A DNA stretch of 22,205 bases. It comes from Candidatus Helarchaeota archaeon. GTDB taxonomy: Archaea; Asgardarchaeota; Lokiarchaeia; Helarchaeales; RDOG01. The stretch covers positions 1-22,205 of the forward strand of contig JALGVI010000049.1 in assembly GCA_029838215.1 (NCBI GenBank). Reading direction: 5' to 3'. The translations under genes and the position numbers were made by a program. The notes under the pieces were generated by a model. The model ran no database searches, was not told the origin of the DNA, and saw only the letters and a program-made list of their open reading frames with translations. Of this stretch, positions 16,405 through 20,775 are shown piece by piece; position 1 is the stretch's first letter; each line of letters starts with the position of its first letter.

Positions 16405-16428
16405 GAAAAATGAAAAAATAAAAAAATT
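16405..16428 (-). terminator. Putative oligo(T) terminator of the GTPase-longin operon
   Basis: Plus strand A-tracts (aaaaatgaaaaaataaaaaaa) directly follow the 16429 stop codon, giving T-runs on the coding strand. Confidence 0.4.
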
Positions 16429-17373
16429 CTATTCAGGGTCTTTGACTTCTCTTTTAACCAGGCCCTTCAGTGCTTCATTGGCATCAGCAGTTGCTTTCAT
16501 GTAGAGCATCAGGGCCTTGACTTTTGCCAAATATTCCTTTTTCTTGATTTCATAATAATCTCGGGTCGTATCAAATTTCGTGAGCTCCGTTGCCACCTGC
16601 GCAGCACGCTCAAAATGCATTGCTGTTTCGTTGATCAAGTTTTTCTTCAGTGCTTTTATTGCTTTTTCTTCCAGTGCCATTACTTCATCCTGCATTTTCG
16701 GTATCTTGCGAAACATCTGTGATTTATTTGAGAATTTGGCAAAAAATTCTTCTTCCTTGATCTCTTTAAATAACTCCGCGGCTCTCTGATAATATTCTGC
16801 CGCTTTCGAGTGGTCTTTAGTTTTTAATGCATTCTCTGCCTGTTTCAGGGATTCCGCCAGTTTAAAAGGCACTTCATCGGCTTTCTTGAGGAGAGATTGT
16901 GCCTCTTCAAATTTTTTCATGTCCAAGAGTGTTTTTGCACGTTCACTAATCTGGTCGCGAATCTGTGAAGCAGAAAAGGTGAGACCTGAATCAGAAATGA
17001 TTTCCGTTTCATAAATATCTTTGATCAATTCAATCAATTTGGGATTGTCTATGCTATCCTTGATTTGCGGTTCTAATTTCCGTAAAATGTAGAAGAAATC
17101 ACTTGCCGCCTCGGTCACGTTTAACAATAAAAGAAGAATGATCCGCCTGACGGTGTTCTTTTGCTTGAACTGGAAATAATAAGAACTGACATTCGCATCT
17201 TCAACCTGAATTGAAATTTCACCTTCAGGAGGTTCCTTTGCAGTATGCATCATGAATGCTTGCATTGGCAAATCAGAACTGATTTCCAACGTTTCGGGAT
17301 ATTTTAATTTGATCACGGGACCAGTCATCTTGTCCCAATCTATAATAACCATTCCACGTGGCATGTTACTCAC
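16429..17373 (-). CDS. uDENN/longin-like N-terminal domain plus alpha-helical (TPR/MIT/SNAP-like) repeats
   Basis: The N-terminal GMVIIDWDKMTGPVIKLKYP matches the 'hydrophobic-F/W-D-x3-G-P-x5-P' start of uDENN/NPRL2-type longins. The C-terminal half has three A-x3-L...A-x3-Y/F-x2-AA helical units. The GTG start overlaps the GTPase stop (GTGA). Confidence 0.7.
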   Translation of the reverse strand: MSNMPRGMVIIDWDKMTGPVIKLKYPETLEISSDLPMQAFMMHTAKEPPEGEISIQVEDANVSSYYFQFKQKNTVRRIILLLLLNVTEAASDFFYILRKLEPQIKDSIDNPKLIELIKDIYETEIISDSGLTFSASQIRDQISERAKTLLDMKKFEEAQSLLKKADEVPFKLAESLKQAENALKTKDHSKAAEYYQRAAELFKEIKEEEFFAKFSNKSQMFRKIPKMQDEVMALEEKAIKALKKNLINETAMHFERAAQVATELTKFDTTRDYYEIKKKEYLAKVKALMLYMKATADANEALKGLVKREVKDPE

Positions 17374-17912
17374 TTTTTCTTAATTTTTTCAAGAATTTTC
17401 TGAACGATTGTCTGGAACATCAAGTCGACATTCTGTCCGGTCTTTGCAGAAGTCTCCACATAATCCAAGCTCATTTTTTTAGCGTACTTTTCGGCTTCTT
17501 CTTTAGTAACTTCAAGATTGGATTCAAGATCCACTTTATTTCCCACTAAAAGACCGATCTTGACCTTGGATTTATTCATTTTCTGATAATCTTTATTCCA
17601 CGTTAAAGAGTTTACAAGAGTCTGTTTATTCGTGGTGTCGAATACCAAGATATATCCAAAAGCACCTTCATAGAAGATCTTGCGGAATGCTGCAAATTTA
17701 GATTGTCCAGCAATGTCCCAAATGTTTAACTTGATATTTTTATCGCTAAGAGATACAAATTTTTGCGAAACTTGGCAACCTACAGTAGGAATATAGAGCT
17801 GTTCGAACCTCTGCTCGGTATATCTCAGCATTAACGTGGTTTTGCCCACGCTCGGATCGCCAATCACGCATATCTTCCAAGTATAATTCGTCTTTTGTTC
17901 CACGATGATCAC
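17370..17912 (-). CDS. Rab-like small GTPase (Ras superfamily)
   Basis: G1 GDPSVGKTT, G2 YIPTVG, G3 WDIAGQ, G4 NKVD, G5 ETSAK. RabF-like KLNIW, FYEGA, LVFDTT. No C-terminal Cys. Confidence 0.93.
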   Translation of the reverse strand: MIIVEQKTNYTWKICVIGDPSVGKTTLMLRYTEQRFEQLYIPTVGCQVSQKFVSLSDKNIKLNIWDIAGQSKFAAFRKIFYEGAFGYILVFDTTNKQTLVNSLTWNKDYQKMNKSKVKIGLLVGNKVDLESNLEVTKEEAEKYAKKMSLDYVETSAKTGQNVDLMFQTIVQKILEKIKKK

Positions 17913-17956
17913 TCTTTTTCATGCTTAATCTTGTAAAAAATCAGGGTTTTACTCAC

Positions 17957-17980
17957 TATAAATAGAATTTCTATTATAAA
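17957..17980. promoter_or_regulatory. Palindrome AATAGAA-T-TTCTATT flanked by TATA-like boxes upstream of the Rab-like GTPase
   Basis: Perfect 7-bp inverted repeat at 17961-17975. TTTATA-type elements on the minus strand lie at both flanks, about 45-70 nt upstream of the GTPase start. Confidence 0.35.
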
Positions 17981-18125: not shown

Positions 18126-18317
18126 TCATTTAGGACCCGCGGCATAAAAATAGTTCTGTTGGTTGTCAATAAGTAAGTAATCCTTGCCATTCTTGTATAT
18201 TACTTCAATGCCCTTCGATTCAGCCATTTCTTTAAGATCTTCCAACGAAGAAAGATGAAAATCGGCTGCTTTTTGCATGTCAAAATACGCCTTCTTTACA
18301 TTGATTATAACGACCAT
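18126..18317 (-). CDS. Small hypothetical protein (63 aa), paralog of the upstream gene's C-terminal domain
   Basis: ATG start 15 nt after the upstream stop. It aligns without gaps to residues 57-115 of the 18333 ORF with 20/59 identities (counted by hand). Confidence 0.7.
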   Translation of the reverse strand: MVVIINVKKAYFDMQKAADFHLSSLEDLKEMAESKGIEVIYKNGKDYLLIDNQQNYFYAAGPK

Positions 18318-18332
18318 TTTAATCAGCTGGCA

Positions 18333-18662
18333 TTATTCTTTGGAGTAATACCACACCCAGCGGTTGTCCTTAAAGAAATACCGTTTCTTGTGGTGATATA
18401 TGGCTTCAATTTTTAAAAGCTTGGCTAAATCAATCATATCTTGCAAATTTTCTAACTGAAAATCGCACTTCTGATCGGGACTCCAAAGCATCTTCTTGAC
18501 CTCTATGATTTTAGGGAGTCCTTCTGTAGTCAACCCGGATTCATCCTTTGGTTTTATCTTGTCTTCCTTCTTATCGTTTTTCTTCTCTGTTTCTTCTTCA
18601 ATATCTACTTCAACTTCGTCCTTAGATTCTTTTTTCTTGTCGGTAATTTTTACCACTTCCAT
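18333..18662 (-). CDS. Hypothetical protein: charged low-complexity N-terminus plus ~59-aa domain shared with the downstream gene
   Basis: E/K/D-rich N-terminus, then KIIEVKK...DFQLENLQD...IEAIY...Y...DN...YY. ATG at 18662 preferred over TTG at 18680. Confidence 0.72.
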   Translation of the reverse strand: MEVVKITDKKKESKDEVEVDIEEETEKKNDKKEDKIKPKDESGLTTEGLPKIIEVKKMLWSPDQKCDFQLENLQDMIDLAKLLKIEAIYHHKKRYFFKDNRWVWYYSKE

Positions 18663-18706
18663 TTTTGATTCGGAATTCAATTAAGAATTCAATTTAAATG
18701 AAATAA

Positions 18707-19968: not shown

Positions 19969-20775
19969 TTGTTTCATACGATATATCTAATTAATGAAGC
20001 GGGCATTTGCATCTACGAGCGGCATTATGTCGAAAATAAACTCGATCCCGATTTGGTTACGGGGTTCATGAATGCCGTGGGATCTTTCGCCAAAGAGGCA
20101 TTCTTAAGTGGTCTACAATCAATGGAACTTGAGGACAATAAAAGACTCATCTATGGAATCGACTCAAAGAATCGTCTCCTTGCGGCAGCATTAGCAGATC
20201 AAGTAGATCATCCTAAATTACAGGAAAGAATCCTTCAACAAGTCATTGAAGCTTTTTTACACGATTACGAGCAAACATTAAATGATGTCGTGAAGCCAAA
20301 AGTTTATGAGGGGTTCACGGAAAAACTCGATAAGATCATTAAAAGAAGGGTTCGCAAACGGGGAAAACTTCAATTTGGTCTTGCGTGCGGTCTAAGTCTC
20401 CTTTGTGTCTTTTTACTTGGAGTATTCATGAGTCCATTATTGGATGTTCTGAACAATACTCCTTATAGCATATTGGCAATTTTCATTTTCATCCCTCCCC
20501 CATTGGTTAGCGGTCTTGTTGCGGGAAATCGCAAGAATGGGATTATTGCAAGCACTATAACGCTAATACCATTAATACCACTGTTATTGACTTCAGAGCC
20601 GAGATATTTGGGTCTATTATTTATCACTTTCGTGATAATGTTGCTGATGATCGGAAGTTTATACGTGACTCTCGGCATGCTTACGGGTTTTCTCATCGAG
20701 AGGTTTTATCTTTATCCAATACCTGCAAATCTTGAAAAAAAAGCTGAAAAACATCAGAAAATAAAATCGACCTGA
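19969..20775 (+). CDS. Longin-domain protein with C-terminal ~4-TM membrane domain
   Basis: N-term IYLINEAGICIYERHY...DPDLVTGFMNAVGSFAKE...LQSMEL...LIYG...LAAALAD follows the longin (sedlin/sigma-adaptin/MON1-like) pattern. Hydrophobic segments at about aa 134-158, 165-185, 190-208 and 213-243. TTG start after GGAG. Confidence 0.75.
   Translation: MFHTIYLINEAGICIYERHYVENKLDPDLVTGFMNAVGSFAKEAFLSGLQSMELEDNKRLIYGIDSKNRLLAAALADQVDHPKLQERILQQVIEAFLHDYEQTLNDVVKPKVYEGFTEKLDKIIKRRVRKRGKLQFGLACGLSLLCVFLLGVFMSPLLDVLNNTPYSILAIFIFIPPPLVSGLVAGNRKNGIIASTITLIPLIPLLLTSEPRYLGLLFITFVIMLLMIGSLYVTLGMLTGFLIERFYLYPIPANLEKKAEKHQKIKST

What the first reader, a model, noticed from the sequence alone, without database searches (positions are those of the whole stretch)
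16429..17912. Rab-like GTPase translationally coupled to a uDENN/longin + helical-repeat protein: candidate archaeal GTPase-GEF module
Seen: the GTPase stop overlaps the partner's start (GTGA at 17370-17373). The partner begins with a uDENN/NPRL2-type signature (IIDWDKMTGPVIKLKYP) and ends in three helical repeat units (e.g. AENALKTKDHSKAAEYYQRAAELF and AIKALKKNLINETAMHFERAAQVA). Established: eukaryotic DENN and longin proteins (DENN family, MON1-CCZ1, TRAPP subunits, NPRL2, C9orf72) act as GEFs or GAPs on Rab/Rag/Arf GTPases, and Asgard genomes encode both classes. Inference: this is a cognate two-gene switch, with the repeat region as a scaffold or effector arm. It would be a prokaryotic precursor of Rab regulation. 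I cannot tell whether this specific pairing is already described.
Basis: partly seen in the sequence, partly recalled or inferred. Interest (0 to 1): 0.8.

Follow-up and report, generated by a model that had tools for sequence, protein, structure and literature searches.

The report
Asgard GTPase with dedicated longin partner
In one branch of Asgard archaea, a Rab-like molecular switch gene is kept next to one particular longin-domain gene, which gives a rare matched switch-and-partner pair to test in the lab; the partner looks more like a docking adaptor than the exchange factor first proposed.

Summary
Window 17370-17912 (-) is a Rab-like GTPase without a lipid-anchor motif. Window 16429-17364 (-) is a longin domain (AlphaFold pLDDT 95; nearest folds Npr2/NPRL2-3 and a Loki longin) followed by 56-residue three-helix repeats that resemble MIT domains. 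The order GTPase-then-partner is kept in 19 of 19 loci of this partner clade (Helarchaeales and one other Lokiarchaeia family) while the flanks change. It is absent at 21 loci of paralogues with the same architecture. Four proteins picked by motif alone all had a GTPase upstream, and one genome has two such pairs. One orphan GTPase was found. Corrections: the GTGA overlap is probably stop codon plus ribosome-binding site (homologues start at ATG 17364). The partner has no DENN lobes, so a DENN-type GEF is not supported. It has the GP/WD loop of longin GAPs and a clade-diagnostic Arg74, but no Arg at the canonical finger position, which related GTPase-fused longins do have. Best reading: a cognate, non-catalytic GTPase-docking longin adaptor; GAP and GEF remain open. 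Binding is not shown. I found no description of this pair. It is confined to Lokiarchaeia, so not demonstrably ancestral to eukaryotic Rab regulators.

The parts
17370..17912 (-). Rab-like small GTPase, 180 aa; G1 GDPSVGKT, switch I YIPTVG, G3 DIAGQ with catalytic Gln70, NKVD, SAK; basic C-terminus, no prenylation cysteines
16429..17364 (-). Partner gene, 311 aa from the probable ATG start (314 aa if GTG 17373 is used): longin domain plus MIT-like helical repeats
16984..17364 (-). Longin domain, residues 1-127 (b1 4-11, b2 15-22, a1 32-41, b3 49-54, b4 57-68, b5 71-81, a2, a3)
17317..17337 (-). b1-b2 loop with Trp10-Asp11 and Gly15-Pro16 (WD...GP, as in C9orf72 and GAP-type longins)
17143..17145 (-). 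Arg74 at the start of b5; invariant in the GTPase-paired clade, absent at this position in 84 other longins; 5 residues C-terminal of the finger position of fused longins
16870..16971 (-). Partial repeat unit 0 (residues 132-165, helix hairpin)
16702..16869 (-). Repeat unit 1 (residues 166-221, three helices, MIT/TPR-like)
16489..16701 (-). Repeat unit 2 (residues 222-292), three-helix bundle most like Vps4 MIT domains
17365..17374 (-). GTPase stop codon inside a GTGAG Shine-Dalgarno-like element, 5 nt before the partner ATG
   Evidence: sequence; similar elements in L003 and L022; function inferred
17956..17980 (-). Two TATA-box-like elements 45-70 nt upstream of the GTPase start (candidate promoter)
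   Evidence: sequence; inferred, untested
16406..16426 (-). Oligo-T tracts right after the partner stop (archaeal terminator-like), facing a convergent gene
   Evidence: sequence; inferred, untested

Best explanation
The two genes form one transcription unit and a cognate module. Shown: conserved adjacency, longin fold, repeats, and the Arg74 signature. Inferred: the GTPase docks on the a1/b1-b2-loop face of the longin (probably as a dimer, as in other longin platforms), with the WD/GP loop and Arg74 forming the contact patch. The longin does not supply a canonical catalytic finger, so it acts as a nucleotide-state-reading adaptor, or as the holding half of a GAP in the manner of C9orf72, whose Trp33-Asp34 hold the GTPase while SMCR8 supplies the finger. 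More speculative: the MIT-like arm grips a helical peptide of a third protein, such as an ESCRT-III tail, and supplies the localisation that the unlipidated GTPase lacks.
For: Pair kept in 19/19 loci with unrelated flanks. Absent at 21 paralogue loci. Four motif-picked proteins all had a GTPase directly upstream and a motif-less control had none. One genome has a long and a short pair, each GTPase grouping with GTPases of the same pair type. Arg74 in 14/14 paired vs 0/21 unpaired paralogues and at that position in none of 84 other longins. No Arg 11-12 residues before the end of b5 in the paired clade (0/14), against 17/18 in GTPase-fused longins, two of which pass the Pfam Folliculin cut-off. 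Fold closest to Loki longin 8YQG (Z 13.2), Npr2 (12.0) and GATOR1 (11.6). C-terminal unit matches archaeal Vps4 MIT (Z 12.1, rmsd 1.3 A over 71 residues) and many other MIT domains. The genome encodes Vps4 and two ESCRT-III proteins. C9orf72 role from 10.1101/2021.04.13.439632.
Against: Paired versus unpaired is one split on the tree, so Arg74 and pairing are not independent observations. Other longins also sit beside GTPase genes sometimes (2 of 10 in this genome, 2 of 23 loci elsewhere). One genome (82% complete) has an orthologous GTPase with no partner. WD is common in unpaired longins (60/84) and GP occurs in 16/84. C9orf72 is not the closest fold (Z 8.8). MIT evidence is below thresholds: Pfam E 0.09, profile probability 50-70%, Z under the 13 caution level for helical bundles. 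No ESCRT gene is near any pair.
Confidence: 0.4

Rival explanations
1. The partner is itself a GAP (probably a homodimer), with Arg74 acting as a shifted arginine finger on the extended b4-b5 hairpin and GTPase Gln70 as the catalytic glutamine.
For: GP motif typical of GAP longins. Closest eukaryotic folds are GATOR1/SEA subunits. Arg74 is the one residue that marks the paired clade. Gln70 is invariant in 15/15 paired GTPases and is His in the orphan GTPase (a single case).
Against: Arg74 lies in strand b5, not in the b4-b5 loop where known fingers sit. It aligns 5 residues after the finger of the folliculin-like fused longins. It could be a structural partner of Asp11.
Confidence: 0.25
2. The partner is a GEF of the longin-dimer type (Mon1-Ccz1, TRAPP, BLOC-3).
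For: Longin dimers act mainly as GEFs (PMC10933270). Absence of a finger is compatible. DENND1A uDENN scores Z 11.5.
Against: No DENN lobes. The GP motif is reported absent from DENND and TRAPP longins. Mon1/Ccz1 and TRAPP folds score lower (Z 8.5-10.2).
Confidence: 0.15
3. The genes are co-transcribed for one pathway but the proteins do not touch, or the adjacency is inherited without strong selection.
For: Single clade. Background adjacency of longins and GTPases in genomes with 50-70 GTPase genes. Paralogues keep other conserved neighbours, such as two coiled-coil genes and a SAM hydrolase. Orphan GTPase in G124.
Against: All other neighbours turn over while the pair persists down to about 25% partner identity. 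The pair was duplicated as a unit. The nearest GTPase relatives are covalently fused to longins.
Confidence: 0.2

Closest known systems
Eukaryotic longin GAP complexes (GATOR1 NPRL2-NPRL3, FLCN-FNIP, C9orf72-SMCR8)
   Same: Longin fold nearest NPRL2/3; GP motif; WD just before it as in C9orf72; a small GTPase as likely client.
   Different: No DENN lobes, no canonical finger, MIT-like arm, no second longin gene in the unit, Rab-like rather than Rag/Arf client.
Asgard GP + Arg-finger longins (PMC12290439)
   Same: GP motif, Asgard origin.
   Different: Those have the finger and no known client; this one has a genomically assigned client but no Arg at the finger position.
Asgard Roadblock + Rab-like GTPase + DENN operon and NPRL2-like longins (Liu et al., 10.1101/2020.10.19.343400)
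   Same: Operon joining a Rab-like GTPase with a longin-superfamily gene; NPRL2-like longins are abundant in Asgard.
   Different: No Roadblock gene, no DENN domain, narrower range; this architecture and pairing are not mentioned in the passages read.
Asgard longin-GTPase fusion proteins (PMC10933270)
   Same: Longin and GTPase functionally joined; the fused G domains are the closest relatives of this GTPase.
   Different: Here the two are separate genes and the longin belongs to a different family (profile match 85-89%).
Vps4-type and tandem MIT domains (Vps4, calpain-7, LIP5/Vta1, Atg1)
   Same: Three-helix bundle; helix-3 signature aligns with Asgard Vps4 MIT.
   Different: Below family thresholds; units joined by continuous helices; fused to a longin; ligand unknown.
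MglA-MglB of Myxococcus
   Same: Prokaryotic small GTPase with an adjacent regulator gene of the longin/roadblock superfamily (operon arrangement from own knowledge).
   Different: MglB is a roadblock dimer and MglA a different GTPase family.

Membership tests
Ras-superfamily small GTPase | G1-G5 motifs and profile match | tested here: met
   Pfam Ras 162.6 bits vs cut-off 21.6; motifs conserved
Eukaryotic Rab family | C-terminal prenylation cysteines | tested here: not met
   No C-terminal Cys in 15 paired GTPases
Eukaryotic Rab family | RabF1-F5 motifs; grouping with eukaryotic Rabs | tested here: inconclusive
   F2, F4, F5 recognisable, F1 and F3 diverged (motif definitions from own knowledge); no eukaryotic rows in the trees
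Longin domain | b-b-a-b-b-b-a-a fold | tested here: met
   Model pLDDT 95.5, pTM 0.89; Z 13.2-10 to longins; no Pfam longin hit by sequence
DENN-domain GEFs/GAPs | cDENN and dDENN lobes after the longin | tested here: not met
   Residues 128-311 are helices only in a confident model
Longin GAPs (NPRL2, FLCN, SMCR8, Avl9 type) | GP motif before b2 | tested here: met
   Gly15-Pro16; 13/14 in the clade
Longin GAPs (NPRL2, FLCN, SMCR8, Avl9 type) | Arg finger in the b4-b5 loop | tested here: not met
   0/14 at the loop position; the conserved Arg is in b5; no Folliculin or NPR2 profile hit
Longin GAPs (NPRL2, FLCN, SMCR8, Avl9 type) | Longin dimer and GAP activity | not testable with these tools
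   Needs biochemistry
MIT domain | Three-helix bundle of MIT geometry | tested here: inconclusive
   Top match Vps4 MIT, Z 12.1, rmsd 1.3 A, many MIT rows, but under the helical-bundle caution level
MIT domain | Pfam PF04212 score over cut-off | tested here: not met
   15 bits vs 30; profile match to Asgard Vps4 MIT 50-70%
MIT domain | Binds ESCRT-III MIM peptides | not testable with these tools
   Needs binding assays
TPR repeat | 34-residue period | tested here: not met
   Period 56 (Pro166 to Pro222); TPR hits are short and under cut-off
Asgard Roadblock-Rab-DENN operon | Roadblock gene and DENN gene beside the GTPase | tested here: not met
   No conserved third gene; partner lacks DENN lobes

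The most novel reading that the evidence does not exclude
The partner is the finger-less, C9orf72-like half of an archaeal heterodimeric longin GAP whose catalytic half is the folliculin-like finger longin fused to the sister GTPases, and its MIT-like arm ties this Rab-like switch to ESCRT-III. That would be a prokaryotic split longin GAP and a direct GTPase-to-ESCRT link.
Probability: 0.1. Interest if true: 0.85.

Novelty: new variant of a known kind. Interest (0 to 1): 0.55.

Why it matters
Asgard genomes hold dozens of small GTPases and longins, but which regulator goes with which switch is unknown. Tran et al. note that MK-D1 GTPase genes are generally not in operons with longins, which makes matching difficult (PMC10933270). 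A 2025 survey asks which GTPases the GP-motif Asgard longins act on (PMC12290439). This locus supplies a small, soluble, genomically matched pair with a diagnostic residue to mutate, so GAP, GEF and adaptor can be told apart in a few assays. The limit: the pair is confined to part of Lokiarchaeia, so it shows what archaeal longins can do rather than the direct ancestor of eukaryotic regulators.

Tried and rejected
Complex prediction (two partner copies + GTPase + GTP + Mg) gave no verdict: 0.31 against a mark of 0.32, controls up to 0.44; not used as evidence either way. Sequencing-run search: no RNA holder listed. Pfam, NCBIfam and PDB sequence searches do not recognise the N-domain. NPR2 profile: no hit in the genome. 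The idea that Arg74 is the NPRL2/FLCN finger was tested by register and set aside as the main reading. TPR/SNAP reading of the arm: only short or sub-0.9 leads; not excluded as a distant kinship, since MIT resembles TPR. GTPase trees: one origin of paired plus fused GTPases is neither shown nor rejected (AU p 0.77; paired alone p 0.66); the family-f7 GTPases are unplaced in the larger tree. The GTPase-partner identity correlation (Spearman 0.76) is expected from vertical descent and was not counted. A metagenome pattern scan gave only two near-duplicate loci; one attempt failed. Five literature searches on Asgard longin/GTPase/MIT/operon terms found no description of this pair; most subscription papers and the asCOG supplements were not searchable, so prior mention is not excluded.

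Full report
Observation. The window carries a 180-aa ORF at 17370-17912 (-) and a 314-aa ORF at 16429-17373 (-). The first is a Ras/Rab-like GTPase (Pfam Ras E 7.6e-48) with intact G1-G5 motifs and Gln70, and no C-terminal cysteines. The second has no significant family hit. Close homologues are named Ca. Helarchaeota, so the host is most likely a helarchaeon (inferred). All full-length homologues start Met-Pro, i.e. ATG 17364, five bases after the GTPase stop. The GTGA overlap is therefore probably a stop codon inside a ribosome-binding element. Residue numbers below count from this ATG. TATA-like boxes upstream and oligo-T tracts downstream suggest a two-gene transcript (inferred).

Partner anatomy. 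AlphaFold gives pLDDT 95. Residues 1-127 have longin topology. Best structural matches: Loki longin 8YQG Z 13.2, Npr2 12.0, GATOR1 11.6, DENND1A uDENN 11.5, folliculin complex 10.2, C9orf72-SMCR8 8.8. The Atlas search returns Asgard clusters, NPR2 proteins (TM 0.80) and longin-GTPase fusions (TM 0.82). Residues 128-311 are helices only, so there are no DENN lobes. The helices form a hairpin and two three-helix units with period 56 (unit 1 vs 2, 95%). Unit 2 matches archaeal Vps4 MIT (Z 12.1, rmsd 1.3 A), and residues 160-289 match the tandem MIT of calpain-7 (Z 11.8). The weak full-length sequence matches in the PDB are Vps4 MITs (E 0.1-0.6). A profile of Asgard Vps4 MITs aligns at 50-70% probability against about 1% for reversed controls. 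This is MIT-like, not established MIT.

Conservation of the pairing. The strict orthologue profile hits 10 of 161 genomes of the class: own genome, f1 1/1, f2 2/3, f3 2/2, f7 4/4, none of 150 in f4-f6. All ten have the GTPase directly upstream, as do four database homologues. Flanking genes differ between lineages. Paralogues with the same longin-plus-repeat architecture, usually two per Lokiarchaeales genome, have no GTPase within 1.5 kb at 21 loci. As an out-of-sample test I picked four proteins by motif; all four had a Rab-like GTPase 0-12 nt upstream, and a motif-less control did not. One genome has both a long pair and a short, 214-aa pair, and each GTPase groups with GTPases of its own pair type. 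That makes 19 loci. Against this: one 82% complete genome has an orthologous GTPase with no partner; other longins are also beside GTPase genes in 2 of 10 cases in this genome and 2 of 23 elsewhere; and paired versus unpaired is a single split on the tree. No orthologue was seen outside the class among 400 genomes.

GEF, GAP or adaptor. A recent survey links the GP motif plus an Arg finger to GAP-type longins and finds both in some Asgard longins with unknown clients (PMC12290439). Fingers lie in the b4-b5 loop. In C9orf72-SMCR8, C9orf72 holds the GTPase through Trp33-Asp34 while SMCR8 supplies the finger. The partner has WD and GP, but these are not specific: 60 and 16 of 84 other longins have them. 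Arg74 is specific: 14/14 paired, 0/21 unpaired paralogues, and absent at that position in the other longins aligned. It lies in strand b5. The genome has 52-67 GTPase-domain ORFs; the closest relatives of this GTPase are about 350-aa longin-GTPase fusions, which group with the Helarchaeales pairs (87/95, 95/94). Their longins have an Arg-Gly loop in 17 of 18 cases, and two pass the Folliculin cut-off. Profile alignment puts Arg74 five residues after that finger, across a short deletion. So the partner lacks the canonical finger although its own genome encodes finger longins. I therefore rank a non-catalytic docking or adaptor role first (0.4), a GAP with a shifted finger second (0.25), no direct contact (0.2) and GEF (0.15). 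That the two genes are functionally linked is much more likely, about 0.85-0.9.

Comparison with what is known. Longin-GTPase coupling in Asgard is known as fusions (PMC10933270) and as a Roadblock-Rab-DENN operon (10.1101/2020.10.19.343400); longins fused to ESCRT-related domains are also described (PMC10936438). This pair differs in architecture, has no Roadblock or DENN part, and was not found in the literature searched. It works like a longin GTPase platform but fails the membership tests for DENN proteins and for canonical longin GAPs.

Verdict. A real, conserved, lineage-restricted two-gene module, a new variant of a known kind. Its value is that it makes an openly stated question, which GTPase an Asgard longin serves and how, directly testable. 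Interest 0.55.

Noticed in passing
G000 C52:4229-5272, C86:36709-37800, C143:13738-14784; L087-L105; L176: Widespread Lokiarchaeia family of about 350-aa fusions of a GP + Arg-Gly finger longin (folliculin-like) to a Rab-like GTPase: candidate self- or trans-GAP GTPases and a direct answer candidate to the client question in PMC12290439. The tandem copy C52:5380-6441 has lost the finger Arg. Possibly more interesting than the finding itself.
   Followed up: partly
G000 C74:19428-20735 (-): 435-aa protein with a GP + ARG finger longin (Folliculin over cut-off) and an unexamined C-terminal part; not among the Rab-like GTPase hits.
   Followed up: no
L086:1034-1573: Orthologous GTPase without partner gene, with the G3 Gln replaced by His.
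   Followed up: partly
L026-L028, L030-L034, L037, L040, L041, L045: One paralogous longin-repeat subfamily keeps a conserved neighbourhood: two co-oriented 130-165-aa coiled-coil genes of unknown family upstream, SAM hydrolase and NUDIX-like genes downstream.
   Followed up: partly
L055/L085: Two tandem GTPase copies in front of one partner gene.
   Followed up: no
window 18126-18317 (-) and 18333-18680 (-): Two tandem small ORFs sharing a 56-aa domain of unknown family (36% identity); not conserved beside other pairs.
   Followed up: partly
window 19969-20775 (+): Second longin-like protein in the window (weak Fuz_longin_1 hit, E 0.067) with a multi-pass hydrophobic C-terminus.
   Followed up: no
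alignments A4/A5, His40, Ser61, Glu85: His40 is invariant across the whole WD-longin superfamily alignment, with Ser61 and Glu85 nearly so; role unexplained (structural or ligand-binding).
   Followed up: no
G128 C10:180665-181120; G000 C155:60966-61646: Stand-alone MIT proteins, including a tandem MIT in a 278-aa frame.
   Followed up: no
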